From NCBI RefSeq assembly GCF_963921235.1, contig NC_086097.1, positions 8,618,001 to 8,682,000 of the forward strand: a stretch of DNA of 64,000 nt, read 5' to 3'. The notes below the pieces were generated by a model. That model worked only from the letters and a program-made list of their open reading frames with translations. It searched no databases and was not told the DNA's origin. A program made the position numbers and the translations under genes. Shown here piece after piece: positions 6,035 to 55,400 of the stretch. The stretch comes from Mobula hypostoma (Eukaryota). Within the stretch, counting starts at the first letter, position 1. The number at the start of each line of letters is the position of its first letter.

Positions 6035-6845
6035 CAGAACATCAATAATTTCAGATATGCAGATGACACTGTGTTAATTGCAAGTACGGAGGAAGAACTA
6101 CAAAACGTAATTGATATAGTTGTTGAAGAAAGTGCAAAAATGGGTCTATATATCAATTGCAAAATGACAGAATGTATGGTGATATCCAGAAAGAAGGAGA
6201 ATCCTGTCTGCAGGCTGAGAATAAACAGGGAAGACATAAAACAAGTACAGAACTTTTGCTACTTAGGAAGCTGGGTGACATCAGGTGGCAGGTGCAACAT
6301 GGACATCAAAAGAAGAATAGGGATGGTAAAAGACACCTTTACGAGAATGAAGAGTATACTGACCAACACTAAACTAGGCATGACAACTCGCCTCAGAGTA
6401 CTGAAATGTTACGTTTATCCAATTATGTTATATGGCTCAGAATGTTGGACAATATCTAGTAAACTGAGGAAAGGAAATGAAGCAGCAGAGGTGTGGTTTT
6501 TGAGGAAGATGCAAAGAATATCATGGATGAAATGAATATCTAAAGAGAATATCATGAACAGAGCAAACACTAAAAGAGAAATAATATATGAGATCATGAA
6601 AGGACAATGTAACTTCATTGGACGTGTAATTAGGAAAGAGGCGTTAGAATGCACGGTACTTATGGGAAAGATTGAAGGGAAGAAAGCAAGAGGAAGACAA
6701 AGACAAATGATGATGGAGACAGCAGCCAGAGAACTGGAAATGAATACTGTACCAATGAATTGATCCACTTGACCTGAAACAGGAGTGTGTGGGCCATGGC
6801 AGCCAAAGCTCAAACTGGGCATGGCACCTGATGATGGTGATGATG
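6035..6845 (+). mobile_element. 5'-truncated RTE (BovB-like) LINE
   Basis: NINNFRYADDTVLIA, FCYLGSW, YPIMLYGSECWT, GKIEGKKARGRQR; (TGA)n tail; 9-bp TSD aatctgtag at 6026-6034 and 6846-6854. Confidence 0.92.
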
Positions 6846-9230: not shown

Positions 9231-10120
9231 TAGTTATATAAGCATTTTGGAAATTTTTCTAAAATACAGAAGCATCTTCCTCAGTAGTAATGGCAATAAG
9301 AAGGCCTTACTAGCTGAATAAACAATAGTTACATTTTAACCAGGGTCTGATCCATTTTAGACATGTATGACAATAAATAATTGCAATGGCAAGGACACAA
9401 TTAACAACTTCAGAAAACTTTTGATAGGTTAAATCTAAAATTAATTCAAAAATTAAGTTATTCTTCCTTGATTAACAAAGGGAAAACAATGTTCATGTGT
9501 CTGTAAATATTTTGTGGAAACAAAATTATTTAACTATATGTACATCTGATTGTATCTCCTCTCATCACAAAATATTTCTGTGCTGCATTCACTCCATAAA
9601 CACAGTATGTCTAAATGTCTGACTCATAGGTTAACACAAAATCTCTATCTTCATTTGTCAAAATTCAGTCTTTCCACATGCATACATGAGGAATGTAAAT
9701 AGTTGGTTGAATAGGCAAGTTATAAGTGTTCGAATATGCCACAGTAGTGTAGCGTTTAGCACAATGCTATTACAGCTTGGGATGTCGGTGCTTGAGTTCA
9801 ATTCCAGCATCAGATATCAGGGGTAAGGTTTTTTTACTCAGAGTAGTGAGTGCGTGGAATGGGCTGCCAGCAACGGTGATGGAGGCGGATACGATAGGGC
9901 CTTTTAAGAGACTTTTGGATAGGTACATGGAGCTCAGAAAACTAGAGAGCTATGGGTAACCCTAAGTAATTTATCAGGTAAGGATATGTTCGGCAAAGTT
10001 TAATGGGCCGAAGGGCCTGTATTGTGCTGTAGGTTTTCTATGATTCTATCACTTGTAAGGAGTCTGAACGTCCTCCTACTGGAATACATGGGTTTTCTTC
10101 AAGTGTTTCGATGTACTCCA

Positions 10121-10237
10121 ACACTCACAACACGCTGGAGGAACTCAGCAGGTCGGGCAGTATCCGTGGAAACAATCAGTCAACGTTTCGGGCTGGAGCC
10201 CTTCATCAGGAGTGAAGAGGGAAGGGGAAGAGGCCCT
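10121..10237 (-). mobile_element. Penelope-like pLTR fragment (second subfamily)
   Basis: acaacacgctggaggaactcagcaggtcgggcag..caacgtttcgggc..cccttcatcagg; same subfamily as 49131-49266. Confidence 0.8.
10177..10214 (-). ncRNA. Variant minimal hammerhead ribozyme motif
   Basis: Minus strand CACUC-CUGAUGA-A-GGG-cuccag-CCC-GAAAC-GUU-GACUG; helix I has one mismatch; GUU cleavage triplet. Confidence 0.6.
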
Positions 10238-12309: not shown

Positions 12310-13865
12310 CCTCACCATAGCATAGGAGTGGAAAATAGCACAAGGGCTAGTGTCTGGCTTTACAGTGCTAGCGATCAGGCTACCATTCCTGCCGCCACCT
12401 GTAAGGAGTTTGTTCATTCTCTTTGTGACCATGTGGGTTTCCTCTGGGTGCAAAGGCATATAAGTTATAGAGGTCATAGAAAAGTACAGCACAGAAACAA
12501 GCCTTTTGGCCCATCTAGTCCATGCTGAACCATTTAAACATCTTAGTCCCATTGACCCTACACCAGGATCATAGCCCTCCGTAACCCTACTATCCATGTA
12601 CCTATCTAAATTTCTCTTAAGCTTGGAAATCGAGCTCACATGCACCTCTTGTGCTGGCAGCTCATTCCATACTTTCACAACCCTCTTAGCGAAGATGTTT
12701 TCTCTCACGTTCCTCTTAAATTTCTCGCCTTTCATCCTTAACCCATGACCACTTGTTGTAGTCCCACTCAACCACAGTGGAAAAAACTTGCTTGCAGTTA
12801 CCTTATCTACACCCCTCTTAATTTTGTACATTTCTATCAAATCTCCTCTTAATCGTCTACACTCCAAGGAATAAATTCTTAACCTATTCAGTCTTTCCTT
12901 ATAACTCAGGTCCTCCAGACCCAGCAACATCCTTGTAAATTTTCTCTGATGTAAATTGAGATGATGAGAGATGTAAATTTTATATACAACTTCATATACA
13001 ACTTTAACATAATGTCCCATCACCTGTACTCAATACAGGCCAATGTACAAAAGCTTTCTTTACAAACCTATCTATCTGTGACAGTACTTTCAAGGAATTA
13101 CAGTCCTCTATTCCCAGATTCTTTTGTTCTACCACACTCCTCAGTGCCCTATCATTCACCTTGTAAGACCTACCCTGGTTGGTCCTACCAAAGTGCAACA
13201 CCGCACACTTGTCAGCATTAAATCCTACCTGCCATTTTTCCAGCTAGTCCAGATCCTGCTGCAAGCTCTGATAGTCTTCCTCACTGTCCACTACACCCCC
13301 AATCTTGGTGTCACGTGCAAATTTGCTAATCGAATTAACTGCATTGTCATGCAGATCATTGACAAACAACAGCATGTCCACACCGAACCCTGCGGCACTC
13401 CACTTGTCACAGGTCTCCAGTCAGAGAGGCCACCATCTACTACCATTCTCTGACTTTGCCTGCAAAGCCCATGTCTATTCCAATTTACTACCCCATCATG
13501 AAGCCAAGAACTGAACCAACCTCCCATGTGGATTAGTAAGTGAGACTAAATTGTGGCTATGCTAAATGGCGCTGGAAGCATGGCAACACTTGAGTGCTGT
13601 CCCCAGCGCATCCTCAGGCTGTGTTGGTCATTGACACGAACAATGCATTTTACTGCATTTCACCATTCAGCCCTGAAACTTTGACTGTACCTTTTTCCAT
13701 AGATGCTGCCTGACCTGCAAAATTCCACCAGAATTGTACCTGTATTGCTTGGATTTTCAGCATCTGTAGATTTTCTCTTGAATGTGATTACATTTTACTC
13801 TACGTTTTGATGTATATTTTGATGTATATTTGATGTATATTTGATAAATAAATCTAATCTAATCT
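12310..13865 (+). mobile_element. tRNA SINE split by a CR1 insertion and a Penelope-derived fragment (~13665-13780)
   Basis: Head at 12310-12455; the tail at 13530-13865 matches 10870-11020. Confidence 0.55.
12465..13528 (-). mobile_element. 5'-truncated CR1 LINE (RT C-terminus to 3' tail)
   Basis: QRMVVDG..SGVPQGSV, LHFGRTNQ, QRKFTRMLLGLEDLSYKERL..RRLRGDLIE; CR1 tail at 12465-12520. Confidence 0.9.
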
Positions 13866-14216: not shown

Positions 14217-15132
14217 AGGGAGAGGGAGAGGGGGAGAGAGGGGGGGAGAGAGGGAGGGAGGGGGGAGAGGGGGAGAGAGGGGAGAGAGGGAGGGAGAGAG
14301 GGGAGAGAGGGAGGGAGGGAGGGGGGAGAGAGGGAGGGAGGGAGGGGGGAGAGAGGGAGGGAGGGAGGGGGAGAGAGGGAGGGAGGGAGGGAGGGAGGGA
14401 GGGAGGGAGGGAGGGAGGGAGGGAGGGAGAGGGGGGAGGGAGGGAGGGAGGGGGGAGGGAGAGAGAGGGAGGGAGAGAGAGGGAGGGAGAGAGAGGGAGG
14501 GAGAGAGAGGGAGGGAGAGAGAGGGAGGGAGAGAGAGGGAGGGAGGGGGAGAGGGGGAGGGAGAGGGGGAGGGAGAGGGGGAGGGAGGGGGGGGAGGGGG
14601 GAGGGAGGGGGGAGGGAGGGGGGAGGGAGAGGGGGAGGGAGGGGGGAGGGAGGGGGGAGGGAGGGGAGAGGGGGAGGGAGGGGAGAGGGGGAGGGAGGGG
14701 AGAGGGGGAGAGGGGGAGGGGGAGGGGGAGAGAGGGAGGGGGGAGAGGGGGAGGGGGGAGAGGGGGAGAGGGGGAGGGGGGAGAGGGGGAGAGGGGGAGG
14801 GGGGGAGAGGGGGAGGGGGAGGGGGAGGGGGGAGAGGGGGAGAGGGGGAGGGGGAGGGGGAGGGGGGAGAGGGGGAGGGGGAGGGGGAGAGGGGGAGAGG
14901 GGGGAGGGGGAGGGGGGAGGGGGAGGGGGAGGGGGAGGGGGGAGGGGGAGGGGGAGGGGGGAGGGGGAGGGGGAGGGGGAGGGGGAGGGGGGGAGAGAGG
15001 GGGAGGGAGGAGAGAGAGGGGGAGGGAGGGAGAGGGGGGAGGGAGAGGGGGGAGGGAGAGGGGGACGGAGAGGGGGACGGAGAGGGGGACGGAGAGGGAG
15101 AGAGACGGAGAGAGAGAGAGAGAGAGAGAGAG
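14217..15132. repeat. ~915-bp polypurine (G/A) low-complexity tract
   Basis: Almost only G and A (GGGA, GGGGA and GAGAGG units, ending in (GA)n, with a few GGAC units); it generates the four spurious 300+ aa ORFs. Confidence 0.97.
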
Positions 15133-18100: not shown

Positions 18101-18644
18101 CAGTACAAGGTTTAATATTTTTTTCTACCATTAATATTAAATTACATTACGATAATTAAAGATAACTAGTGAAATACAATTTGATTTCTACATTAAAATC
18201 TCATTTGCTGCTATTTAGATACCACCAAGTTAATGGAGTCGCTTTCAAATCCAGAGGGGAAACATTGACTCAGGCTCAATAACTGGACTTAGAAACCTTC
18301 CTTGCTAACAATGGTGGAACAGTAGCTCTGCCCACAATACGAAGTAGAGAGCGATTACTCCATTCACAAAGCTTCGAGCAAGATTCTTATTCAGTGTACA
18401 ATAAAAGAAACCTTTGCCTTTGAAACATGTTAACAATGATTTAGACAGGAGAACTGCAAACAGCATTTCCAGGACATTTTCAATTGCAGTTCACCCAGTT
18501 TTTTGCCTAAAAAGTGCGGAGGTCTCCAGCTGAATATTTTGGATCAGGAAAGGTGGTAAGTTTAGTAACTGGAACACACACCTACAGGAAATATGCCATC
18601 ATGTTTCAGAACGGACAATGAATCCATATACACTACCATACTAT

Positions 18645-18966
18645 GCAAACATGAGGAATTCTGCAGATGCTGGAAATTCAGGCAACACACATCAAAGTTG
18701 CTGGTGAACACAGCAGGCCAGGCAGCATCTCTAGGAAGAGGTACAGTCGACGTTTCAGGCCGAGACCCTTCGTCAGGACTAACTGAAGGAAGAACTAGTA
18801 AGAGGTATGAAAGTGGGAGGGGGAGTGGGAGATCCAAAATGAATCTCCCTCCCACTTTCAAATCTCCTACTAGCTCTTCTTTTAGTTAGAAACGTCGACT
18901 GTACCTCTTCCTAGAGATGCTGCCTGGCCTGCTGCATTCACCAGCAACTTTGATTTGTGTTGCTTG
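18645..18966. mobile_element. Short inverted (tail-out) Penelope-like insertion
   Basis: 15-bp TSD acactaccatactat at 18630-18644 and 18967-18981; the right arm is the reverse complement of the left but lacks the hammerhead core. Confidence 0.9.
18744..18781 (-). ncRNA. Minimal type-I hammerhead ribozyme motif (Penelope pLTR)
   Basis: Minus strand UAGUC-CUGACGA-AGGgucucggCCU-GAAAC-GUC-GACUG. Confidence 0.8.
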
Positions 18967-21964: not shown

Positions 21965-22140
21965 TCACAAACAAGAGAAAATCTGCAGATGCTGGAAATC
22001 CAAGCAACACAAGCAAAATGTTGGAGGAACTCAGCAGGCCAGGCAGCATCTATGGAAAAAAGTACAGTCAATGTTTGAGGCCAAAACCCTTCGGCGATGC
22101 TGCCTGGCCTGCTGAGTTCCTCCAGCATTTTGTGTTTTGC
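21965..22140. mobile_element. Older short inverted Penelope-like insertion in a Rex1 remnant
   Basis: aaaatgttggaggaactcagcaggccaggcagcatc ... gatgctgcctggcctgctgagttcctccagcatttt; hammerhead core decayed or truncated. Confidence 0.78.
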
Positions 22141-22754: not shown

Positions 22755-25700
22755 AACCAGACTGTGTGGGTATGCGTGGGCACACTACCTCACTACTGAA
22801 ACCCTGGCTCTCTGGCAGGGCAGATCCAGACAGCAGAGCTGCCGAGGGCAGCAATGACCACCGCCCTACAACGATCCAACGCAACACAGCAGAACCTGGG
22901 GCAAGTGGTGGTGACGGCACTTCAGGAGCCAACCGGCAGTGAGGTAGACTTCCCCACCATTGACCAGCAGCTAGTGAGCAGGTGAGTGGTCCTGTGCTGG
23001 CACGAGTGAGGGGATGGTAGCCAGAGTGGGCAAAGGTCTCTGCCCTAGATCCAGAGACCGAAACCCTATACTCTCAGTGGGGCACACGACAGGCTGCTGT
23101 TCTGGCAGTGACCATTTTCTGACAACACCAGACATTCAATGGAAAAGTGTGTATGGAACCAGAGGAAAAAGTGGAGGTACTTAATGAATACTTTGCTTCT
23201 GTATTCACTATGGAAAAGGATCTTGGCGATTGTAGGGATGACTTGCAGTGGACTGAAAAACTTGAGAATGCAGGTATTAAGAAAGAGGTCGTGCTAGAGC
23301 TTTTGGAAAGCATCAAGTTGGATAAGTCACCGGGACCAGACGGGATGTACCCCAGGCTACTGTGGGAAGCGAGGGAGGAGATTGCTGAGCCTCTGGCAAT
23401 GATCTTTGCATCATCAATGAGGACGGGAGAGGTTTCAGAGGATTGGAGGGTTGCAGATGTTGTTCCCTTATTCAAGAAAGTGAGTAGGGATAGCCCAGGA
23501 AATTATAGGCCAGTAAGTCTTACTTCAGTGTTTTGTAAGTTGATGGAGAAGATCCTGAGAGGCAGGATTTATGAACATTTGGAGAGGCATAATATGATTA
23601 GGAATAGTCAGCATGGCTTTGTCAAAGGCAGGTTGTGCCTTACGAACCGGACTGAATTTTTTGAGGATGTGACTAAACACTTTGATGAAGGAAGAGTAGT
23701 AGATGTAATGTATATGGATTTCAGCAAGGCATTTGATAAGGTACCCCATGCTAGGCTTATTGAGAAAGTAAGGAAGCATGGAATCCAAGGGGACATTACT
23801 TTGTGGATCCAGAATTGGCTTGCCCCCAGAAGGCAAAGAGTGGTTATAGATGGGTCATTTTCTGTGTGGAGGCAGGTGACCAGTGGTGTGCCTCAAGGAT
23901 TTGTTCTGGGACCCCTACTCTTTGTGATTTTTATAAATGACCTGGATGAGGAAGTGGAGGGATGGGTTAGTAAATTTGCTAATGACACTAAGGTTGACTG
24001 TGTTGTGGATAGTGTGGAGGGCTGTCAGAGGTTACAACAGGACATTGATAGGATGCAAAACTGGGCTGAAAAGTGGCAGATGGAGTTCAACCCAGATAAG
24101 TGTGAGGTGTTTCACTTTGGTAAGTCAAATATGATGGCATAATACAGTATTAATGGCAGTGTGGAGGATCAGAGGGATCTTGGGGTCCGAGTCCATAGCA
24201 CACTCAAAGCAGCTGCGCAGGTTGACTCTGTGGTTAAGAAGGCATAGGGTGCATTGGCCTTCATCAACTGCAGGATTGAGTTCAAGAACCAAGAGGTAAT
24301 GTTGCAGCTATATAGGACCCTGGTCAGACCCCACTAGGAGTACCGTGCTCAGTTCTGTCGCCTCACTATAAGAAGGACGTGGAAACCATAGAAAGGGTGT
24401 AGAGGAGATTTAAAAGGCTGTTGCCTGGATTGGGGAGCATGCTTTATGAGAATAGGTTGAGTGTACTTGGCCTTTTCTCCTTGGAGCGATGGAGGATGAG
24501 AGGTGACTTGATAGAGGTATGCAAGATAATAAGAGGCATTGATCATGTGGACAATCAGAGGCTTTTCCCCAGGGCTGAAATGGCTAGCACGATTGGGCAT
24601 AGTTTTAAGACGCTTGGCAGTAGGTACAGAGGAGATGTCGGGGTAAGTTTTTTTACGCAGAGAGTGGTGAGTGCATGGAATGGACTGCCAGTGGCAGTGG
24701 TGGAGGCAGATACGATAGGGTCTTTCAAGAGTCTCTTGGATGGCTACATGGAGCTTTGAAAAATAGAGGGCTATGGGTAAAACCTAGGTAGTTCTAAGGT
24801 AGGGACAAGGTCGTCACAGCTTTGTGGGCTGAAGGGCCTGTATTGTGTTGTATGTTTTTCTCTATTTCTATCTCCTGAAGCTGGTAGTCCCCTGGGGGCT
24901 CCATGCCATGGTGCTGCGGTCAGTGCACAGTGGGGCCAGCTATTTCAGGGTTGCAAAGACATTGGTCAAGCTGTGAGAATGTTTCTGTTGGCCTGGTACA
25001 AGCAGGACATGGAGCTATTTGTGCACTGCTGTGACGCTTGCCACCCTAGAAGGAGCTGTGCTGCCATTCTCGGGCACCAGTGCAACAGTACCTTGTGGGG
25101 TCCAAGTATGAGTCTACAGCCCCACCCAGAAGAGACAATTCCCCAAGCTTGGAACCCATTGGAAGGGGTCAGGAGAGATGCTCGACTACCTCTCCAATGT
25201 GACCTACCGGGTGTAGTTGCATGAGCAACAGAAGGCATATGTGCTGCACTGGGACTGACTGGCCCTATATTGGTCCTGGGCCACCACTGGCCCAGCGAGA
25301 CTGAAAGCAGGAAGAGACTCTCCTAGTGCCCTACCTTTTGCTTCACCAAACAGTGCCTCCCACGAGGTGGGTGGGGGTGGGAACAACAGGATACCCACAA
25401 TCCCACAGGCAGCAGTGTTGACCACCACCAGGACTTTTGAACTTTGTTGCGGACTCTGAGGTTACTTACCCCTCAGGTGGGGGCAGGGTAGCAATTCAGT
25501 GATGGGCCTGGTTGACAGCCCTCCCGAGCATTCCTGGTAGCCAGCACTTTTTATTGTTCTTGTTTTAAAACACTTGTGAGGGATTATAGTGCCATGTTCA
25601 AGTTCATTTAATATTACATCTTAGCTTGGGTTATACAGTTATTCACATATGTGTTTGCAGGTCCCCCTAACTGTAACCAGGATGTGCAATGATCACCTCC

Positions 25701-27230: not shown

Positions 27231-28643
27231 TTTCCTGTTACAAAAGCTACTATCCTTTAGTCTTTGTTCACAGCCATTGACTGAAGCTAAACTCTCACAA
27301 AACAATTACCACATTTGTGGTATCAGGATCAGAATTAATCACCCTATTACTCCCTTGGTGCTGTAATAACCCAAATGAATATCTGCCATTGTGACTGAAG
27401 AATATAAAATAAATTTATCAAGGATTTTGCCTTACTGAAAATGACTGGCTTAACATAATCCTTTCTGTATTAGAAGAAGTGCTAGTACAACGAAAGGAAT
27501 GAAAATTCAGGAAGTAATTGACAAGGTTCTTTGGAAAACAAGGCTACAGGGAATACATTTTAGGCACAAGTTATATAGGGGAAGAGAATCATAAAGATTA
27601 CCTTAGGCCTGTCTTGTAGCACATATTTCAATGTGAAAAAGGAAGAATTTAGCTACATTGCATCATTTACAACTGTCATAAGCCCTGCAGGCTTCTGCTG
27701 CGGGCAGTAGAGTGTTGGGTTTCTGGGTTTCTTAAGCACCTGAATTTACTAATTGTTAGGACCATTAAGCCCTGGTGCTTTTGGTTTAATCTTGTCGAGT
27801 TAATTGTGATCAGCATGTGCTTCCAGGATTCTATCATTATTTAAATTGGACTTTCGTTATGTTCTGTTAGGGAATCCTATTGTAGGTTTGTTAGAATAAT
27901 TTGTCACATGGTGTTCCTTGATTATACCTCTATTGCCTTATGATATACCTGTGCCTAATCTCTTGTTTTTGTCTCTTTGTGGGGAGTCTGCTGTTCCTCT
28001 GCTGCTGGGTCTAGTCCTGAGGAAAGTGCACCATAAGAGTCACCACAGGTTATCATGAAGTATGTTATAGCCAGCCAATAGTTTAGAGATATAGTGGAAA
28101 ACAGGCCCTTCCAGCCCACTGAGCTGCACTGCCTAGCAAATCATAGCTTAATCAGAGGATAGTTTACAACAACCACCAGGAAATCCATGTGGTCACTGGG
28201 AGAATATGTAACCCTAAATTCTGACACCTTGAATTGTGTAATAGTGTCAAACTAACTCCTGTGCTACCATAATGCCACAAAATCAAAGATTTATCAAAGT
28301 TGTTCTGTCAACTGCTACTGTTTCCACACTTCACCAGCAATTTACATAAAGCATTAGCAACAGAGAAATTTTCCTTAAAATTGTATTTCCTCATCAAAGT
28401 ATATGGATGACCCTTTAGGACAGAGATGAGGAAGAATTTCTTTAGATAGAGGGTGGTGATCAAACAGCTGATAGTCAATACCTTATCCAGATGTTGGCAT
28501 CATTGGTTCAGTAGCCTTCCCTCTGTTCTGGATGAGAATTTCAACAGACATTTTGAGTAGAAGTTGGACATGGAGCTACTTCCTTTTGATTCAGCGCTAC
28601 TTAAAATCAAATGTTCCTACAACCAATGATCTCACTTTAAGGA

Positions 28644-30050
28644 ACACACATCAAAGTTGCTGGTGAACGCAGCAGGCCAGGTAGCATCTGTAGGAAGAGG
28701 TGCAGTCGACGTTTCAGGCCGAGACCCTTCGTCAGGACTAACTGAAGGAAGAGTGAGTAAGGGATTTGAAAGTGGGAGGGGGAGATCCAAAATGATAGGA
28801 GAAGACAGGAGGAGGAGGGATGGAACTAAGAGCTGGACAGGTGATTGGCAAAGGGGATACAAGAGGATTATGGGACAGGAGGTCCAGGAAGAAAGACAAG
28901 GAGGTGGGGTACCCAGAGGATGGGCAAGAGGTATATTCAGAGGGACAGAGGGAGAAAAAGGAGAGTGAGAGAAAGAATGTGTGCATAAAAATAAGTAACA
29001 GATGGGGTACGAGGGGGAGGTGGGGCCTTAGCGGAAGTTAGAGAAGTCGATGTTCATGCCATCAGGTTGGAGGCTACCCAGACAGAATATAAGGCGTTGT
29101 TCCTCCAACCTGAGTGTGGCTTCATCTTTGGGATGTGGAATTAAAATGTGTGGCCACTGGGAGATCCTGCTTTCTCTGGCAGACAGAGCGTAGATGTTCA
29201 GCAAAGCGGTCTCCCAGTCTGCGTCGGGTCTCGCCAATATATAAAAGGCCACATCGGGAGCACCGGACGCAGTATATCACCCCAGTCGACTCACAGGTGA
29301 AGTGTTGCCTCACCTGGAAGGACTGTTTGGGGCCCTGAATGGTGGTAAGGGAGGAAGTGTAAGGGCATGTGTAGCACTTGTTCCGCTTACACGGATAAGT
29401 GCCAGGAGGGAGATCAGTGGGGAGGGATGGGGGGGATGAATGGACAAGGGAGTTGCGTAGGGAGCGATTCCTGCAGAATGCAGGGGGGGGGGGAGGGAAA
29501 GATGTGCTTAGTGGTGGGATCCCGTTGGAGGTGGCGGAAGTTACGGAGAATAATATGTTGGACCCGGAGGCTGGTGGAGTGGTAGGTGAGGACCAGGGGA
29601 ACCCTATTCCTAGTGGGGTGGCGGGAGGATGGAGTGAGAGCAGATGTACGTGAAATGGGGGAGATGCGTTTAAGAGCAGAGTTGATAGTGGAGGAATGGA
29701 ATCCCCTTTCTTTAAAAAAGGAAGACATCTCCCTCGTCCTAGAATGAAAAGCCTCATCCTGAGAGCAGATGCAGTGGAGACGGAGGAATTGCAAGAAGGG
29801 GATGGCGTTTTTGCAAGAGACAGGGTGAGAAGAGGAATAGACCAGATAGCTGTGAGAGTCAGTAGGCTTATAGTAGACATCAGTGGATAAGCTGTCTCCA
29901 GAGACAGAGACAGAAAGATCTAGAAAGGGGAGGGAGGTGTCGGAAATGGACCAGGTAAACTTGAGGGCAGGGTGAAAGTTGGAGGCAAAGTTAATAAAGT
30001 CAACGAGTTCTGCATGCGTGCAGGAAGCAGCGCCAATGCAGTCGTTGATG
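28644..30050 (-). mobile_element. 5'-truncated Penelope-like element: RT C-terminus, GIY-YIG endonuclease and pLTR with hammerhead
   Basis: Minus strand INDCIGA..NFHPALKFT..LPFLDL..YYKPTDSHSYL; CKRNKCYTC..FTCESTGVIYCVRCSRCGLLYIGETRRRLGDRFAEH; LEEQRLIFCLGSLQPDGMNIDF; 10-bp TSD actttaagga at 28634-28643 and 30051-30060; frameshifted. Confidence 0.93.
28703..28740 (-). ncRNA. Minimal type-I hammerhead ribozyme motif (Penelope pLTR)
   Basis: Identical 38-mer to 18744-18781; same sense as the GIY-YIG ORF and ~290 nt downstream of its end. Confidence 0.82.
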
Positions 30051-30344
30051 ACTTTAAGGACTCTTTATCTCATTCTTATGTTCTCATTATTTATTGTGAT
30101 TTACTTAAATTTGCACATTTTATTGTTTTCTGCATTCTGAATGATCTTTCATCGATCCTGTTATAGTTATTATTTTATAGATTTGCTGAGAATTCCCACA
30201 ATAAAATGAATCTCAGAATTGTATGTGCGCTTTGAGAATAAAATTTACTTTGAACTTTTGAGCATTGAATCTATTGAGTCCTGAGCTGATAACTGACAAA
30301 GTATTCATTACCATTCAATAGTGTGTAGTTAAAAAGATAGTAGA

Positions 30345-36007: not shown

Positions 36008-36936
36008 CAGAATCAGAATCCTTTATTATTGCCAAGTATGTGGACACATACAGGGGGCTTGATACTGATTTCCCTGAGCTCTCGCTGTACAGAATCAAAA
36101 AGCAAACAAAACAATAGTGCAAATAATCGTGAACTATATACAATGAAGTATACCTGTGTATGTACAGGTGGACTTGGTTTATAATAGACTAAAATTCAAG
36201 TGTTCATAAGACTGATGGCATACGGAAAGAAACTGTTCTTGTACCTATTTGTCCTGGCATACAGTGATCTAAAGCGCCTACCAGAAGGAAGGAGTTGGAA
36301 CAGGTGATGTCCAGGGTGTGATGGGTCTACAATGATGCTGCTTGCTTGTTTCCTGACTCTAGATGCATATAAATGCTGGATCGAGGGCAGCTTCACACCA
36401 ATAATCCTTTCCGTAGCCCTGACGGTTCTTTGGAGTCTATTCTTGTCTTGTTTGGTAGCTGATCCAAACCAGACAGTGATGGACGAACAGAGAACAGACT
36501 GGATTATTCCTGAATAGAATTGAATCAGCAGCTCCTGAGGCAGGTTGTACTTCCTGAGTTGACGTAGGAAATACAACCTCTGCTGAGCCTTTTTGATAAG
36601 AGTATCCGCGCTGGGTGTCCACTTCAGATCCTAGGAGATTGTGACACCCAGAAACCTGAAGGTCTCCACAGCAGACACAACACTGTTGAGTATAGTGAGC
36701 GGGGGGAGCACTGGGGGCCTCCTCCTGAAATCCACTGTCATCTCCACAGTCTTGAGCGTATTTAGCTCCAGATTGTTCAGACCACACCAGAGGGCCAGCC
36801 ATTCCACCACCCATCTGTATGCAGACTCATCACCATCTCGGATAAGGCCAATGACAATTGTGTCGTCTGCAAACTTCAGGAGTTTAACAGATGTATCCTG
36901 TGAGGTGCAGTCATTAGTGTCAAGGGAGAAGAGCAG
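36008..36936 (-). mobile_element. 5'-truncated Rex1/Babar LINE inserted in the Tc1 transposase
   Basis: TNDCTS..LLKFADDTIVIGLI, FRFLGVTIS, YFLRQLRK..DPSHPGHHLFQLLPSGRR; (attctg)n tail; TSD tgtaat at 36002-36007 and 36937-36942. Confidence 0.92.
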
Positions 36937-37480
36937 TGTAATTAAGTAATGGCAGTTAACAGGAATGGTGGAGGTCAATTTGAGGTCTGGAAGACCAAGA
37001 AAACTTTCCGAGAGAACTGCTCATAGGATTGCTAGAAAGGCAAATCAAAACCCAATGGACTACCTCAAGAGGTGCAAACTGAAGGTTTTGCCATGGCCCT
37101 CACAGTCTCCCGACCTAAACATCATCTAAAATCTGTGGATAGACCTGAAAAGAGCAGTGCATGCAAGACTGCCAAAGAATTTCACAGAACTAGAAGCCTT
37201 TTGCAAAGAAGAATGGGTGAAAATCCCCCAAACAAGAATTGAAAGACTCTTAGCTGGCTACAGGAAGCGTTTACAAGCTGTGATACTTGCCAAAGGGGGT
37301 GTTACCAAGTACTGCCATGCAGGTTGCCCAAACTTTTGCTTTGGGCTCTTTTCCTTTTTTGTTATTTTGAAACTGTAAAAGATGGAAATTAGAAAGTAAT
37401 CTTGCTTAAAATATTGAAGAAACATACATCAAAGTTGCTGGTGAACGCAGCAGGCCAAGCAGCATCTATAGGAAGAGGCG

Positions 37481-37518
37481 CAGTCGACGTTTCAGGCCGA
37501 GACCCTTCGTCAGGACTA
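37481..37518 (-). ncRNA. Minimal type-I hammerhead ribozyme motif
   Basis: Identical 38-mer, left arm. Confidence 0.8.
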
Positions 37519-37825
37519 ACTGAAGGAAGAGTGAGTAAGGGATTTGAAAGCTGGAGGGAGAGGGGGAGATGCAAAATGATAGGAGAAGACAGGAGGGGGA
37601 GGGATGGAGCCGAGAGCTGGACAGGTGATAGGCAAAAGGGGATACGAGAGGATCATGGGACAGGAGGTCCGGGAAGAAAGACAAGGAGGAGGGGTGACCC
37701 AGAGGATGGGCAAGAGGTCCTGTCCAGCTCTTGGCTCTATCCCTCCCCCTCCTGTCTTCTCCTATCATTTTGCATCTCCCCCTCCCCCTCCAGCTTTCAA
37801 ATCCCTTACTCACTCTTCCTTCAGT

Positions 37826-37863
37826 TAGTCCTGACGAAGGGTCTCGGCCTGAAACGTCGACTG
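37826..37863 (+). ncRNA. Minimal type-I hammerhead ribozyme motif
   Basis: tagtc-ctgacga-agggtctcggcct-gaaac-gtc-gactg, right arm. Confidence 0.8.
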
Positions 37864-38924
37864 CGCCTCTTCCTATAGATGCTGCTTGGCCTGCTGCGTT
37901 CACCAGCAACTTTGATGTATGTTGCTAAAATATTGAAGAAATGTGTCATCTTTAACTTTATGCTTTTTGGAAATCTAGTCATCTTTTACTCGCTTAGCTA
38001 TTCACAGTAACAGAAATTTTGACCAGGTGTGCCCAAACTTTTGCACGCCACTGTATCTGTCTTATTGCAATTTATAGTGATTTTATTATGTATTGCAATG
38101 TACTGCTACAGTGAAACAACAAATTTCATGATTTATACCAGTAATATAAAACTTGATTCTGATTCTGATTCTGAGAATGAAATATGATCAGTGAATATCA
38201 GGTACTTGGTGACCAGCATGAACTCGGTGAGCTGAAGGGACGTTTCTGTGTTTTATATTTCTACAAAAACAAATGATAAAATCCTATAGCTGGTAGGACA
38301 CCTGATTGACTTTCCTCCTTGTGGTGAATCTTGCTGTGGTTTATCTCTTCAAACTAAAATACAAATTGGAATTGAATTGCAAAACCTCTCATGCAATGAT
38401 TCTCAAAGGTGACTATAAGCTGATACATTTCTCATCAAAACATTCTCTTCCCCAGGAGAGCAGAAAGTGGGAAGTTCATTCCAGCAGAGATATTTCAGGT
38501 AATGTATGTGAAACCCCAGCTGCTGATTGTGTCTGGGGCTGAGGTGGGGACTGAATTTGATAGTAGATGAGAACTGGCATTGGGCTTGCCATCAGTCCAT
38601 CTTCTCAGTGCATTGCAACCAGGCCAAATTCATGGTTTACCCTAACTGAAACAAAAGCATTGTTTACTGGTCAGCTGCTTCATGATGAAGCCAATGTTAT
38701 GAGAGGCAAAGTCTATCATAACGCTTCACAATGGTTGAAATTGCAACATTGAAGAGAACAGACTTCATTTCTTGAAGATCTTGATGGAGACAAAGGTAAT
38801 AGAGAGAGAGAGAGATATGTGCAGTACCAACTGGTGGGTTATGAACCCTATGACATAGATGGAAGAGATGCTGTCTCACAGTGGCAGAGACCTGGGTTCA
38901 GTGCTTTCCTTGGTCCTGTTTGAC

Positions 38925-39482: not shown

Positions 39483-40429
39483 TCAAACAGAATATGAGGG
39501 AAATGTGTTTCTCATTGCTAAGAAGAAGAATAATTCATGTATTTGTATCTATTGTGTTTTTTTTCTTTTTGTGATGCATTGAATCTGTCATTTATGTTAT
39601 GTTGCTCTCCTTTACACTTGTCTACTGGAAATCATGTGAAACAATCTTAAATCTTGAATCTCGAAGAAGTAGGTCTTCAGGTCCCCTCAGACATCTTTGT
39701 CATTTGGCAAATTCATGGCTATTTTATACCTTGTCCATCATGTCACTGATCCCAATATCTCATAGTCTGTGCTTTTTGCATCCAAAGTTCAATGGAAGTC
39801 AACAGAATTACTTCTTCTAAATAAATCACATAACATTTTATAAAACAAAACTTATAGCTTTACATGGTCAATTAAACCAACTCCTGGAAATCTTGAACAG
39901 CAGATAGAAAATGCTAGAGGAAATGAGCAGGTCAGACAGCACTCATCGAAAGGAATAAGTAGTTGATATTTCCAGCCAAGACACTTCATCAGGAAATATC
40001 CCAATTATAGTGGGGCATGGCAGACTTCGCAATTGCTAAAGACATTTATCTACCTTTGCTGTATTTTTTCTGTAACTTGCTCTATATTCTGCATCAACAC
40101 ACACAAAATGTCAACTGTTTACTCTTTCCCATAGATGCTGCCTGGCCTGGTGAGTTCCTCCAACATTTTGGGTGTGTTGCTCTGGATTTCCAGCGTCTGC
40201 AAATTTTCTCCTGTTTTTCTATTTTCTGCCTTCTGTTTTTGTTTGCCTTTTTTTACTCTTTCAATGTGCCAGTGTTCAGAATGATTTGTCTAAGAGACAT
40301 GCAGACAAAAGCTTTTCACCGTATCTCCATGCATGTGACAATATTAAACCAAAACGTTTGCTTCCTCAGCAGTTTTCTGTGGTTATGATTGACCACTTGA
40401 AATGAAGACAAATACAATTTCAGACGACT

Positions 40430-48809: not shown

Positions 48810-49430
48810 ACTTCATTTTCTGCCCATTACACTACTGACATTTGGGGCAGCAATGTAAGTCCTCCATCTCTGTCCTTGGCTGAAACCAATTTTAGTCTTG
48901 GTCTTAATGGCGCTCAGAGCTTCCTTAATCATGTCAGTAGCTTTACTTGGTTTTCACTACTGTCAGTTGTGCAAGTCCCAGGTGGAGAATCGGGAATACC
49001 ATTGCACTCAGATGAAGAAAGATTTATCATTGTTGTTTCCATAACAGTTTTTCCTGACTTATCAGGGTTGTTAGCCCTGAGCTGAACCCCGGAACCTAGA
49101 AGACTGGTAGACCACTCTTAGTCTGGCCTCACAACTCGCTGGAGGAACTCAGCAGGTCGGGCAGCATCCGTGGAAACGACCAGTCAACGTTTCAGGCCAG
49201 AATCCTTCCTCCAGCATGTTGTGAGTGTTGCTTTGACCCCAGCATCTGCAGAGTATTTTGTGTTTACTTAGTCTGGCCTCTACCCTTTGACCTGCTTGGC
49301 ACGGTGACCCTACCAAGAGCCAAAGCATGAGGCCCTGATTCCAGCCAAAATAGCTTGTCGAGTCAGTAAGGCATGCAAACTCCCAAACCCTCCAAACCAT
49401 GACAAGGTTGTGGTCCCTTTGGAGGATGCA
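48810..49430 (-). mobile_element. Second bipartite Expander/RTE-like element, itself inserted in a CR1 tail and carrying a Penelope insertion
   Basis: Homology to 5556-5915; flanks gatgcatttaaggt (~48796) and gatgcacttaaggt (~49425) look like a TSD. Confidence 0.72.
49131..49266. mobile_element. 136-bp inverted Penelope-derived insertion
   Basis: 14-bp TSD cttagtctggcctc at 49117-49130 and 49267-49280; the left arm stops inside the hammerhead (caacgtttcaggcc); the right arm is ttcctccagc..ccagcatctgcag. Confidence 0.85.
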
Positions 49431-52467: not shown

Positions 52468-55400
52468 ACAAGATCACAAGACAAAAGAGCAGAAGTAGGC
52501 CATTCGGCCCATCGAGTCTGCTCCGCCACTCCACCATGAGCTAAACTATTCTCCCATCTAGTTCCAATCTCCAGCTTTTTCCCCATATCCCTTGATACCC
52601 TGACTAATTAGATACCTATCAATCTCCTCAAACACCCTCAGTGATCGGGCCTCCACAGCTGTATGTGGCAACAAGTTCCATAAATCCGCAACTGTCTGGC
52701 TAAAAAAATTTCTCCTCATCTCTGTTTTAAATGGGTACCCTCTAATTCTAAGAATGTGGCCTCTTGTCCTGGACTCACCCACCAAGGGAAACAGCCTTTC
52801 CACATCCACTCTGTCCAACCCTTTCAACATTCGAAATATTTCTATGAGATCCCCTCTCATTCTTCTATACTCTAATGAATACAGTCCAAGAGCAAACGCT
52901 CTTCATATGTTAGCCCCTGCATTCCAGGAATCATCCTTGTAAATCTTCTCTGAACACTCCCCAACATCAGAACATCCCTTCTAAGATAGGGGGCCCAAAA
53001 CTGCACACAGTTTTCCAAATGAGATCTCACCAGTGCCCCATAGAGCCTCATCAACACCTCCTTACTCTTATACACTATTCCTCTTGAAATGAATGTCAAC
53101 ACAGCATTCACTTTCCTTACTGCCAATCCAACCTGGTGGTTAACCTTTAGGGTATCCGGCACGAGGACCCCCAAGTCCCTTTACACTTCTGATTCTTGAA
53201 TGTTCTCTCCATCTAAATAATAATATGCCCGATTATTTCTTCTTCCAAAATGTACAACAGTACATTTTTCAACATTGTAACTCAACTGTCATTTCTTTGC
53301 CCACTCTCCTAAACTGACCAAGTCTCTCTGCAACCTTTCTGTTTCTTCAACACTTCCTGCTCTTCCACCTATCTTGGTGTCATTCCCAAACTTAGCCACA
53401 AAACCTAGTAATCCATAATCTAAATCATCGATATACATTGTAAAAAGTAGCGGCCCCAACACCGACCCCTGCGGAACACCACTAGTAACTGGCAACCAAT
53501 CAGAATAGGATCCCTTTATTCCCACCCTTTGCTTTCTGCCTATCAGCCAATGCTCCACCCATTCCAATATCTTTCCCGTAATTCCATGGGCTCTCATCTT
53601 ATTAAGCAGCCTCTTATGCCGCACCTTATCGAAGGCCTTTTGAAAATCCAAATACACAACATCCACAGCCTCTCCCTTATCAATCTTATTTGAGATTACC
53701 TCAAAATTCCAATAGTTTGATGAGGCAGGATCTTCCCTTCATGAAACCATGCTGGCTTGGGCCTATCTTGTCCTGCTCCTCAAGGTGTTTCATAGCCTCG
53801 TTCCTGAGGATCGACTCCAATAACTTTCCAACTACCAATGTCAGACTAATAGGTCTGTAATTTTCTTTTTGTTGCCTCCCTCCTTTCTTAAACAGCGGAA
53901 CTACATTTGCGACCTTCCAGTCCTCTGGAACCATGCCAGAGTCTATTGATTCCTGGGAAGATCATTTCCAATGCTTCCACAATCTCCAAAGCCACCTCCT
54001 TCAGAACCCTTGGGTGCACCTCATCCGGACCAGGAGACTTATCTATTCTTAGTCCACTTAGATTCCCAGGCACTTTCTCTCTAGTAATCTTGACTGTACC
54101 TAATTCTATTCCCTGATACCTCTGGCTATCAGGTATGTTGCTAATGTCTTCCACTGTGAAGACTGATGCAAAATACTCATTTAGTTCCTCTGCCATCTCT
54201 TTGTTACCCATTATAATTTCTGCAGCATCATTTTCAATCGGTCCTATATCTACCCATGTCACTCTTTTACTCTTCATATATTTAAAAAAACTCTTAGTAT
54301 CCTTTTATATGTTAATTGCCAACTTCCTTTCATAATTCATCTTTTCTTTCCTCATGACTTCCTTAGTTTCCTTCTGTAAGTTTTTAAAAGTTGTCCAGTC
54401 CTCAGTTTTCCCACTAATTTTTGCTTCCTTGTACGTCGTCTCTTTTGCTTTTATTTTAGCCTTAACCTCTCTCGTTAGCCACATTTGTCCCATTTTTCCA
54501 TTCATGGGTTTCTTTTTTCTTGGAATATATTTTTTCTGAACTTTCGTTATTTCTTGTAAGAATTTCCTCCAATTCTGCTCTACTGTCCCTCCATTGAGAT
54601 TACTTCTCCAATCTACTTGGGCCAGTTCCTCTCGCATACCACTGTAATTTCCTTTGTTCCACTGAAATATCGATATACCTGATACCAGCTTCTCCTTTTC
54701 AAATTTGAAACTGAACTCAATCATATTATGAGCACTACTTCCAAGGGGTTCCTTTACCTCCAGCTCCCTAATCAGCTCAGGTTCATTACACAGCACCCAA
54801 TCCAAAACAGCCAATCCCCTGGTGGACTTATGGACAAGCTGCTCCAAAAAGCCATCCTGTAGGCATTCTACAAACTCCCTCTCCTGGGATCCAGTACCTT
54901 CCTGACTTTCCCAATCCACTTTCATATTAAAATCCCCCATGATTATCTTGACATTTTCCTTCTGACACGCTTTTTCTGTTTCCAGCTGTAACTTGTCGTC
55001 CACATTCCAGCTGCTGTTTGGAGGCCTGTATATAACTGCTATTAGTGTCTTTTTACCTTTGCCATTTCTTAACTCGACCCAAAGGATTCTACTTCTTCTG
55101 ATCCTATGTCCCTTCTTTCTAGTGATTTGATATCATTGCTTACCATCAGGGCCACGCTACCCCCTTTACCTACCTTCCTATCTTTCCTATACACTGTGTA
55201 TCCTTGGACATTCAGCTCCCAATCACACCCATCAGTTAGCCATGACTCGGTGATGGCCACAATGCCATATCTTTTAACCTGTAGCTGTACAACAAGGTCA
55301 TCCACTTTATTTCTAATGCTGCGTGCATTTAAGTACAGTACATTTAGATCAGTATCTGTTACCAATTTTGCTATATTTCTATCGCACAGCAAATTATCCT

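What the first reader, a model, noticed from the sequence alone, without database searches (positions are those of the whole stretch)
28703..28740. Four identical minimal hammerhead ribozymes with a loopless helix III, foldable only as dimers
Seen: the 38-mer UAGUC CUGACGA AGGGUCUCGGCCU GAAAC GUC GACUG occurs identically at 18744-18781(-), 28703-28740(-), 37481-37518(-) and 37826-37863(+). It has both core boxes (CUGANGA, GAAA), a GUC triplet, helix I (U)AGUC/GACU(G) and a 3-bp helix II (AGG/CCU, or GGG/CCU after an extra A). Helix III is only the palindrome ACGU with no loop. Established: Penelope-like elements carry minimal hammerheads in their pLTRs that are proposed to cleave as dimers. 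Inference: this young family needs two copies, tandem or in trans, to self-cleave. The class is known; this family and its activity may be uncharacterised.
Basis: partly seen in the sequence, partly recalled or inferred. Interest (0 to 1): 0.8.

Follow-up and report, generated by a model that had tools for sequence, protein, structure and literature searches.

The report
Penelope retroelement minimal hammerhead motif copies
The four identical 38-base motifs are real, but they are ordinary copies of the loop-less "minimal hammerhead" ribozyme motif found near the 3' end of Penelope-like retrotransposons, a class described in 2014 and present here in tens of thousands of copies.

Summary
The 38-mer occurs exactly at the four stated places, and none is expected by chance. 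It has every hammerhead core nucleotide, a 5-bp helix I and a GUC cleavage triplet. Helix II is best read as 4 bp after a bulged A. Helix III is only the ACGU palindrome, with no loop.

The motif lies on the coding strand downstream of a reverse transcriptase + GIY-YIG frame. That places it in the 3' part of a Penelope-like element (PLE). The four motifs come from three 5'-truncated insertions: one single copy and two head-to-head inverted pairs.

The genome (3.48 Gb) holds 29,805 exact copies and 74,566 matches to a relaxed pattern. The motif matches the "min-HHR" of Cervera & de la Peña 2014 feature by feature.

Activity is untested. None of the four has a same-strand partner within 8.7 kb. 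The nearest-neighbour model favours inactive folds. Covariation does not exceed shuffles. Core positions are somewhat more conserved than their flanks.

Verdict: a new member of a known kind, of low interest.

The parts
28703..28740 (-). Minimal hammerhead motif, copy B. The predicted cleavage is after C17, between 28708 and 28707 on the minus strand.
   Evidence: Exact match; anatomy read.
28636..30049 (-). 5'-truncated Penelope-like element copy B: the end of the RT domain, the linker, a GIY-YIG remnant, the 3' UTR with the hammerhead, and a short 3' end.
   Evidence: Aligns at 92.8% over 1466 nt to the longer copy in L043. Other copies share its 3' end.
29122..29919 (-). Open frame of 265 aa with a Cys-rich linker and the start of a GIY-YIG endonuclease. 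It is broken near 29125-29129.
   Evidence: Pfam GIY-YIG E=0.0023, 18.6 bits, below the 22.6 cut-off. Translation. Contigs of other runs carry about 35-39 extra letters at 29128/29129 (tables 5c and 7).
29414..30064 (-). Overlapping open frame of 216 aa in another reading frame. It is the part of the element's coding region upstream of the linker.
   Evidence: Translation. No Pfam hit. The region is homologous to the RT-bearing copy in L043.
18744..18781 (-). Minimal hammerhead motif, copy A. The predicted cleavage is between 18749 and 18748.
18676..18843 (-). Minus arm of head-to-head pair A: the 3' module of the element, about 165 nt.
   Evidence: (D1, I25).
18844..18965 (+). Plus arm of pair A. 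It has a 23-base internal deletion that removes hammerhead positions 3-25, so it is a broken fifth copy.
   Evidence: Alignment A3; nhmmer hit at 18883-18961.
37481..37518 (-). Minimal hammerhead motif in the minus arm of pair C. The predicted cleavage is between 37486 and 37485.
37826..37863 (+). Minimal hammerhead motif in the plus arm of pair C. The predicted cleavage is between 37858 and 37859.
37414..37718 (-). Minus arm of head-to-head pair C: 305 nt of the element's 3' end.
   Evidence: reference positions 1469-1765, 91.8%; I2 (216-nt arms, 97% complementary).
37719..37930 (+). Plus arm of pair C: 212 nt of the element's 3' end. It abuts the minus arm directly at 37718/37719.
10120..10216 (-). 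Diverged subfamily copy of the hammerhead + tail module. Its core is intact, and helix II is GGGC/GCCC with a UCCA loop.
22007..22106 (-). Diverged, decayed copy of the module. It belongs to the subfamily that has C at core position 6.
49131..49214 (-). Diverged, decayed copy of the module.
13670..13743 (+). Module copy truncated at its 5' end inside the hammerhead.
39904..40177 (.). Head-to-head pair of old, decayed module copies: 39904-39994(-) and 40103-40177(+).

Best explanation
The 38-mer is the minimal type I hammerhead motif (min-HHR) of a very abundant Penelope-like retroelement (PLE) family. It lies on the coding strand, about 290-380 nt after the RT + GIY-YIG frame. It sits 67 nt (short end) or about 103 nt (with a 36-nt 'tail') before the 3' end of the insertion.

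Shown here: every core nucleotide is present (C3 U4 G5 A6 G8 A9 G12 A13 A14 A15.1 U16.1 C17). Helix I has 5 bp. Helix II has 4 bp after a bulged A. Helix III is reduced to the self-complementary ACGU with no loop.

Inferred from that structure and from published work: one molecule cannot close helix III. An active site can form only when the ACGU and the helix I strands of two sense copies pair with each other (a double hammerhead). Cleavage would then fall after the C of GUC, probably slowly and with help from the element's own protein or a chaperone.

The four motifs come from three dead, 5'-truncated insertions: one single copy and two head-to-head pairs. Such pairs arise when both cut DNA ends prime reverse transcription. 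None of the four has a sense partner nearby, so these loci are most likely inert relics. Any function belongs to transcripts of master copies. My odds: 0.9 that this is a PLE min-HHR, and about 0.4-0.5 that this particular variant self-cleaves in vivo.
For: Exact copies and core boxes.

PLE context: GIY-YIG remnant and Cys-rich linker upstream on the same strand. A 547-aa frame with RVT_1 (E=1.7e-5) and GIY-YIG (E=4.3e-4) ends 295 nt before the motif in a sampled longer copy.

Retroelement behaviour: all copies share one 3' end and have scattered 5' ends. The 3' end comes in two classes that differ by about 36 nt.

Pair orientation: among the first 100 exact copies, 10 pairs within 1 kb are -/+ (head to head), none is +/-, and 1 is +/+ (binomial p=0.002).

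Abundance: 29,805 exact copies and 74,566 relaxed-pattern matches, with reversed-pattern controls at 0.

Published PLE insertion features also match. Craig et al. 2021 (passages) describe 5' truncation, an adjacent inverted 5'-truncated copy and a 30-40 bp tail. PMC11167929 (passages and section 3 part 1) reports cleavage and extension of both DNA strands and internal initiation of reverse transcription.

Conservation: diverged subfamilies align to copy B only from the first bases of the hammerhead to the 3' end (nine HSPs start at reference 1662-1670, and the hammerhead starts at 1661). In one run of another organism code, contigs run on unlike exactly at 28703 and 28739, the borders of the motif (table 7). 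Within 15 close-family copies, non-CpG core positions differ in 1 of 150 cells against 47 of 1140 in non-CpG flank positions (Fisher p=0.018).
Against: No Rfam hammerhead model matches, even at E up to 10. This is expected for a motif without helix III, but it leaves the call without an independent model-based confirmation.

On 35 copies (31 distinct), covariation does not exceed shuffled controls: 84.6% paired against 84.2%, and 2 pairs with double changes against 2.4.

Nearest-neighbour energies favour inactive folds. The monomer MFE is -11.0 kcal/mol with GACG of the first core box paired to CGUC. The two-strand MFE is a -30.3 extended duplex. The double-hammerhead pairing scores only -11.5. 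The model ignores tertiary contacts.

The 10.1-11.1 pair is G.U in this 38-mer, not the G-C reported as highly conserved.

A subfamily with C at the essential position 6 has spread. There are 2,453 non-A copies, and of the first 100 listed 67 are C, 24 G and 9 T.

5' ends of truncated copies do not pile up at the cleavage site: 2 of 21 starts in reference 1641-1695 lie within 3 nt of it, and about 2.7 are expected if starts are uniform (HSP ends are approximate).

Published work reports low in vitro activity even for dimers. For an anole PLE it reports cleavage only with protein, no need for cleavage in the in vitro insertion assay, and no RNA-seq ends at the site.
Confidence: 0.85

Rival explanations
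1. The hammerhead-like fold plus the roughly 70-105 nt behind it is kept mainly as the recognition and initiation module for the element's reverse transcriptase. Self-cleavage is dispensable or vestigial in this family.
For: The motif sits directly upstream of the common 3' end where reverse transcription must begin. The whole module, not only the hammerhead, is conserved between diverged subfamilies (alignment A2). The most abundant variant has a G.U wobble at 10.1-11.1. A subfamily with C at core position 6 has multiplied. For the anole PLE, catalytic mutants did not affect in vitro insertion, and the RNA needed for insertion lies next to the hammerhead.
Against: Core positions are more conserved than neighbouring positions in the close family. 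That is what selection for catalysis predicts, though protein binding could also produce it. No conserved secondary structure was found for the module (9 predicted pairs, none with compensatory changes). PLEs of fungi, plants and protists carry fully active hammerheads.
Confidence: 0.25
2. The short copies are a separate non-autonomous family, a non-LTR retrozyme or SINE-like element, that spreads through tandem units and circular RNAs. On this reading they are not 5'-truncated PLE copies.
For: Many copies are only 100-300 nt long. A 2026 preprint argues that animal retrozymes derive from PLE terminal regions (abstract and Results part 1 read).
Against: 5' ends are scattered rather than fixed, and short copies are collinear with the 3' end of long RT-bearing copies. 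No head-to-tail tandem array occurs in the window or in the 200 kb sample. Only 1 same-strand pair within 1 kb occurs among the first 100 exact copies, against 10 head-to-head pairs.
Confidence: 0.05
3. The match to the hammerhead core is a chance resemblance inside a repeat, and the RNA has no ribozyme-related role.
For: No Rfam hit. No covariation beyond shuffles.
Against: All 12 core nucleotides, the two helices, the bulged nucleotide and the palindromic 15.2-16.2 occur together. They sit in exactly the element class and strand where such motifs are documented. The motif's borders coincide with the borders of between-subfamily and between-organism similarity.
Confidence: 0.02

Closest known systems
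min-HHR of metazoan Penelope-like elements (Cervera & de la Peña, Mol Biol Evol 2014, PMC4209133; parts 1-2 of the text read)
   Same: Type I topology. The core boxes are present. There is no helix III stem-loop, only a palindromic 15.2-16.2. One nucleotide is unpaired between 9 and 10.1. Helix I is short (5 bp). The motif lies in the non-coding terminal part of a PLE on the sense strand. Most copies are solitary, in truncated elements. Opposite-strand pairs lie a few hundred bp apart. There are thousands of copies per vertebrate genome.
   Different: The 10.1-11.1 pair is G.U in the dominant 38-mer, where the paper stresses G-C. Helix II has only 4 bp, two of them wobbles, whereas the Schistosoma families have 7-8 bp. 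Copy number is higher than the roughly 4,000 (coelacanth) and 9,000 (Xenopus) quoted. This exact sequence was not found in the searchable text of the paper library or in 2 of the paper's 3 supplementary files. Figures are not held.
Hammerhead of the anole Poseidon element PAc (Mob DNA 2024, PMC11167929; passages and section 3 part 1 read)
   Same: A PLE hammerhead with stems I and II and no real stem III. It lies a short distance upstream of the internal site where reverse transcription starts. The genomic copies carry a 'tail'. The element cleaves and extends both DNA strands, which fits the head-to-head pairs seen here.
   Different: In PAc the ORF start overlaps the hammerhead. Here the motif lies in the 3' UTR, and the short ATG frame behind it runs into a stop once the long tail is read. 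PAc activity was tested and found to be protein-assisted. Nothing was tested for this family.
Double-hammerhead self-cleavage of newt satellite and avocado sunblotch viroid RNAs (Forster et al. 1988; known to me only through citations)
   Same: An unstable helix III is completed between two copies, so that only dimers or multimers cleave.
   Different: Those RNAs keep a 1-2 bp helix III with a small loop, and they occur as tandem or rolling-circle multimers. Here there is no loop at all and tandem copies are rare.
Rfam Hammerhead_1 (type I) and related Rfam hammerhead models
   Same: The same catalytic core and helix I / helix II arrangement.
   Different: No match at the gathering score in the window. 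No match at E up to 10 in 28600-28850. The models require a helix III hairpin.

Membership tests
PLE min-HHR (Cervera & de la Peña 2014) | Hammerhead core: CUGANGA, GAAA, A15.1/U16.1 and a cleavable H17 | tested here: met
   CUGACGA ... GAAAC GUC read. Four exact copies. Pattern search.
PLE min-HHR (Cervera & de la Peña 2014) | No helix III stem-loop; positions 15.2-16.2 palindromic, so that helix III forms only between two copies | tested here: met
   ACGU is followed directly by C17. The 15.1/16.1 and 15.2/16.2 columns are complementary in 83.9% of cells on 31 distinct copies.
PLE min-HHR (Cervera & de la Peña 2014) | [quoted passage not shown] | tested here: met
   With the extra A unpaired, helix II is paired in 89.4% of cells. 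With the A paired (the 3-bp register) only 69.6% are paired.
PLE min-HHR (Cervera & de la Peña 2014) | A 10.1-11.1 pair closes helix II next to the core (G-C in the published consensus) | tested here: inconclusive
   The pair is kept, but as a G.U wobble in the 38-mer. Among 31 distinct copies it is G-C in 15, G.U in 11 and other in 5. In the contigs of four runs, C at 11.1 makes up 20-86% of depth (place 28716).
PLE min-HHR (Cervera & de la Peña 2014) | Short open helix I (type I topology, 4-5 bp) | tested here: met
   UAGUC/GACUG give 4 Watson-Crick pairs plus one U.G. 80.7% of cells are paired.
PLE min-HHR (Cervera & de la Peña 2014) | Located in the terminal non-coding region of a Penelope-like element (RT + GIY-YIG ORF) on the sense strand | tested here: met
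   copy B; sampled longer copy: RVT_1 and GIY-YIG in one 547-aa frame, both just under Pfam's cut-offs.
PLE min-HHR (Cervera & de la Peña 2014) | The motif is present in both flanking direct repeats (pLTRs) of full-length elements | tested here: inconclusive
   No full-length copy with two same-strand motifs was found in the 264 kb unbiased sample. One same-strand pair 2,858 nt apart proved to be two separate insertions. Further genome sampling was not possible.
PLE min-HHR (Cervera & de la Peña 2014) | Self-cleavage as a dimer | not testable with these tools
   Only energy estimates are available, and they do not favour the active pairing.
Rfam type I hammerhead (Hammerhead_1 and clan) | Match to the covariance model, which includes a helix III hairpin | tested here: not met
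   0 matches at gathering score. No hammerhead among 3 matches at E up to 10.
Non-LTR retrozyme | Head-to-tail tandem units, each with a type I hammerhead | tested here: not met
   No same-strand neighbour lies within 2.8 kb in the 264 kb sample. There is 1 same-strand pair within 1 kb among the first 100 exact copies.

The most novel reading that the evidence does not exclude
In this family the hammerhead is kept chiefly as part of the RNA module that the element's reverse transcriptase recognises at its internal start site, and catalysis is not needed for spread. Three observations point that way. The most successful variant carries a G.U wobble at the 10.1-11.1 pair. A subfamily with C at the essential core position 6 has multiplied to an estimated 1,600 or more copies. 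Truncated copies show no pile-up of 5' ends at the cleavage site.
Probability: 0.25. Interest if true: 0.5.

Novelty: new member of a known kind. Interest (0 to 1): 0.22.

Why it matters
The finding mainly serves annotation. Tens of thousands of hammerhead-like motifs in this genome escape Rfam because they lack helix III. They mark the 3' ends of Penelope-like element insertions and their head-to-head pairs.

What PLE hammerheads do in vivo is still an open question. This family gives a large natural sample of variants (U or C at 11.1, A or C at core position 6, two tail lengths). That sample could help decide whether self-cleavage is needed for retrotransposition. The class, its dimer logic and its association with PLEs are already in print, so a specialist would not be surprised.

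Tried and rejected
- Rfam: nothing at gathering score in the whole window. No hammerhead at E up to 10 around copy B.
- Expression: the look-up of sequencing runs listed no RNA holder; all 24 rows are contigs whose 'RNA?' label is a guess. Read laying on four of them gave no places where molecules begin or end (table 6: none). Contigs cannot show ends, so nothing can be said about expression or cleavage in vivo.
- ORF start in the tail: I asked whether the ATG 20 nt behind the cleavage site starts the element's ORF, as in the anole element. Rejected. Read through the long tail, the frame reaches TGA after about 16 codons (letters).
- A pLTR pair: two same-strand motifs lie 2,858 nt apart in L038/L039. 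Rejected. Homology to the long copy stops 1.5 kb before the upstream motif, which is a separate 100-nt insertion.
- Structure of the 3' module: RNAalifold on 14 diverse copies gave -4.13 kcal/mol and 9 pairs, none with a compensatory change.
- Covariation of the hammerhead helices: not above shuffles.
- 5' ends at the cleavage site as a fossil of cleaved templates: no excess.
- The 5' end of the element: a search with the upstream part of the L043 copy hit an unrelated 529-nt repeat instead, and no loci could be cut.
- Lünse, Weinberg & Breaker (RNA Biol, PMC5785218), the main experimental paper on dimer cleavage of PLE hammerheads, is not held. I know it only from the review passages.
- Earlier notes of this scan: none, by place or by sequence.
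- Literal search for the motif in the paper library and in 2 of 3 supplementary files of PMC4209133: no occurrence. One supplementary file and all figures could not be searched. Repbase and Dfam are not on hand, so the family may already be curated there.
Full report
**Observation.** No further match appears at up to three mismatches, and none occurs in 100 shuffles. A looser pattern (first core box, 5-30 bases, GAAACGTC) finds the same four places.

Read in the RNA sense, the motif is UAGUC / CUGACGA / A / GGGU CUCG GCCU / GAA / ACGU / C / GACUG. All hammerhead core nucleotides are there. Helix I has four Watson-Crick pairs and one U.G. The cleavage triplet is GUC. Helix III is only the self-complementary ACGU, with no loop.

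**Context in the window.** The motif is part of a repeat of 160-300 nt. Copy B (28636-30049, minus strand) is the longest. It has an open frame of 265 aa 381 nt upstream of the motif on the same strand. That frame ends in a Cys-rich linker and the start of a GIY-YIG domain (Pfam E=0.0023, below the curated cut-off). A second frame overlaps it further upstream.

The other three motifs belong to two head-to-head inverted pairs.
- Pair C is 37414-37718(-) abutting 37719-37930(+). Its shared 216 nt are 97% complementary.
- Pair A is 18676-18843(-) abutting 18844-18965(+). Its plus arm has lost 23 bases of the motif.

So the four identical motifs are three insertion events, and a fifth, broken copy exists. 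A profile search finds 16 copies of the hammerhead-plus-tail module in the window, most of them old and decayed.

**The element.** The window lies in a genome of 3.48 Gb. I held 30 motif-anchored loci and a contiguous 200 kb taken elsewhere on the same contig.

All copies share one 3' end and have scattered 5' ends, the signature of target-primed reverse transcription. One sampled longer copy has a 547-aa open frame with RVT_1 (E=1.7e-5) and GIY-YIG (E=4.3e-4). It ends 295 nt upstream of the motif, and its upstream part lies in a different frame. Both Pfam scores lie just under the curated cut-offs. A reverse transcriptase with a C-terminal GIY-YIG endonuclease in one frame is the architecture of Penelope-like elements. 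I did not resolve the clade (Penelope/Poseidon, Neptune or Nematis).

The 3' end comes in two classes, a short one and one about 36 nt longer. Copies B and C have the short end.

Close pairs are strongly oriented. Among the first 100 exact copies listed, ten pairs within 1 kb are -/+ (5' ends adjoining), none is +/-, and one is +/+ (p=0.002).

Three features of this picture are described for PLEs by Craig et al. 2021 (passages): 5' truncation, an adjacent inverted 5'-truncated copy, and a 30-40 bp tail. The 2024 in vitro study of an anole PLE found that the protein cleaves and extends both DNA strands and starts reverse transcription at internal sites. That would produce exactly such head-to-head pairs and tails. 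This link is my inference.

**Abundance.** The genome holds 14,868 + 14,937 = 29,805 exact copies of the 38-mer. It holds 37,185 + 37,381 = 74,566 matches to a pattern that frees N7, the loop, position 11.1 and position 17. Reversed-pattern controls gave 0 in both searches. The unbiased 264 kb (window plus 200 kb) hold 51 module hits. Of these, 15 have an intact core by a simple regular expression. Four copies in one window is therefore unremarkable; about 0.55 exact copies are expected per 64 kb.

**Comparison with what is known.** Cervera & de la Peña 2014 (parts 1-2 of the text read) defined a 'min-HHR' with no helix III or loop 3. They found it in the flanking repeats of PLEs and spread through metazoan genomes, including fishes, coelacanth (~4,000), Xenopus (~9,000) and reptiles. 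The recurrent features they list are:
- a G10.1-C11.1 pair;
- a palindromic 15.2-16.2;
- a helix I of 4-5 bp;
- many solitary copies in truncated elements;
- pairs on opposite strands 100-700 bp apart.

The present motif has all of these except that 11.1 is U, which gives a G.U wobble.

The bulged-A reading is also the better one on this genome's own copies. On 35 copies (31 distinct), the 4-bp helix II is paired in 89.4% of cells.

Contigs of four runs with four organism codes hold look-alike stretches. At place 28716, which is position 11.1, C makes up 28%, 20%, 86% and 59% of depth. So U at 11.1 looks like the derived state of the dominant subfamily here. It would arise by a CpG transition, since C11.1 is followed by G12.

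**Is the motif under constraint?** There are three lines of evidence, none of them strong.

(1) Diverged subfamilies align to copy B only from the first bases of the hammerhead to the 3' end. Nine HSPs start at reference positions 1662-1670, and the motif begins at 1661. In one run, hundreds of contigs run on unlike exactly at 28703 and 28739, the motif's borders (table 7). The motif and the tail behind it are thus the conserved island of the 3' UTR.

(2) Within 15 close-family copies, the 38 nt as a whole are no better conserved than the flanks. Cells differing from the column majority are 4.0% for the motif, 5.4% upstream and 3.7% downstream. The non-CpG core positions, however, differ in only 1 of 150 cells, against 47 of 1140 for non-CpG flank positions and 13 of 300 for non-core motif positions (Fisher p=0.018 and 0.026).

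(3) Covariation is absent: every measure equals its shuffled control. That is expected for dead copies of a few related masters, where most changes are CpG decay.

**Evidence that bears against efficient self-cleavage.**
- The nearest-neighbour model gives a monomer MFE of -11.0 kcal/mol, in which GACG of the first core box pairs with CGUC at the cleavage site.
- The same model gives a two-strand MFE of -30.3 kcal/mol as an extended duplex. The double-hammerhead pairing scores only -11.5. The model ignores tertiary contacts.
- A variant with C at the essential core position 6 has multiplied. Of 2,453 copies with a non-A there, the first 100 listed are C 67, G 24, T 9. Neutral decay would favour the transition to G.
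- 5' ends of truncated copies do not pile up at the cleavage site: 2 of 21, with about 2.7 expected.
- Published work reports low in vitro activity even for dimers. For the anole element it reports cleavage only when protein is added, no effect of catalytic mutants on in vitro insertion, and no RNA-seq ends at the site.

**These four loci.** The nearest same-strand intact motifs in the window are 8.6-10 kb apart. The two motifs of pair C are on opposite strands, so a read-through transcript would carry one sense and one antisense copy. It would fold into a long hairpin rather than a double hammerhead. The loci are truncated and partly broken. They are best seen as inert relics. Any ribozyme function belongs to the transcripts of master copies, which I could not find in the DNA available to me.

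**Mechanism, with odds.**
- Shown: the motif, its PLE context, its position next to the 3' end, the insertion architecture and the abundance.
- Inferred from structure and literature: helix III and helix I must form between two sense copies, with cleavage after C17, probably protein- or chaperone-assisted.
- Odds: 0.9 that this is a PLE min-HHR; 0.4-0.5 that this variant cleaves in vivo; about 0.25 that the module is kept mainly for recognition by the reverse transcriptase, with catalysis dispensable.

**Limits.**
- No full-length element or pLTR was seen.
- No RNA data with ends were available.
- The main experimental paper on dimer cleavage of PLE hammerheads is not held.
- Figures and one supplementary file of the 2014 paper could not be searched.
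- Repbase and Dfam are not on hand. The exact sequence does not occur in the searchable text of the paper library, but the family may still be curated elsewhere.

**Verdict.** The class is well known. This is a new (or at least not demonstrably published) member of a known kind, and of low interest.

Noticed in passing
G000:C1, first 100 exact copies; window 18676-18965 and 37414-37930: Close pairs of the element's 3' ends are almost always head to head. Ten pairs are -/+, none is +/-, and one is same-strand within 1 kb. The arms often abut with no spacer. This fits priming of reverse transcription from both cut DNA ends.
   Followed up: partly
Genome-wide; window 22007-22106(-); L049:1243-1280, L050:833-870, L048:6295-6332, L049:5625-5662: A subfamily carries C instead of the essential A at hammerhead core position 6. 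C accounts for 67 of the first 100 non-A copies, against 24 G and 9 T. The variant was therefore propagated and did not arise by random decay.
   Followed up: partly
3' flanks of module copies, e.g. window 18644-18683(-), L037, L046, L017: The insertions have two classes of 3' end. One is short (copies B and C in the window). The other is about 36 nt longer and is conserved between subfamilies. This resembles the 30-40 bp 'tail' described for PLEs.
   Followed up: partly
window 29125-29129: Copy B lacks about 35-39 nt that most related contigs carry at this point. Here its GIY-YIG frame stops, and a different frame runs on to a TAA at 29028-29030.
   Followed up: partly
window 14217-15132: A purine-rich simple repeat of about 900 nt (units AGGGAG / GGGGGAGGGAGG, 72-78% matches) leaves all six frames open. 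It accounts for the GC-skew peak at 12-16 kb.
   Followed up: yes
window 53289-55132(-), 23123-24142(+), 36196-37020(-), 6035-6535(+): Remnants of other retroelements. One has an endonuclease-reverse transcriptase (Exo_endo_phos_2) followed by RVT_1. One is a 339-aa RVT_1 frame (E=1.5e-33). One is an RVT_1 fragment followed by an ALKBH8_N-like match (E=4.4e-17). One is a further RVT_1 fragment. The window is largely interspersed repeats.
   Followed up: no
L043:3372-3900: A 529-nt repeat lies directly upstream of the sampled long PLE copy. It is about 95% identical in at least 40 scored places, out of 6,653 first-look candidates. I did not determine whether it is part of the element or a separate family.
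   Followed up: no
window 13805-13845: A short tandem array (unit TTTGATGTATA, 3.5 copies) sits just behind a truncated module copy whose tail ends in a similar word. It may be slippage at the 3' end, or insertion into a microsatellite.
   Followed up: no
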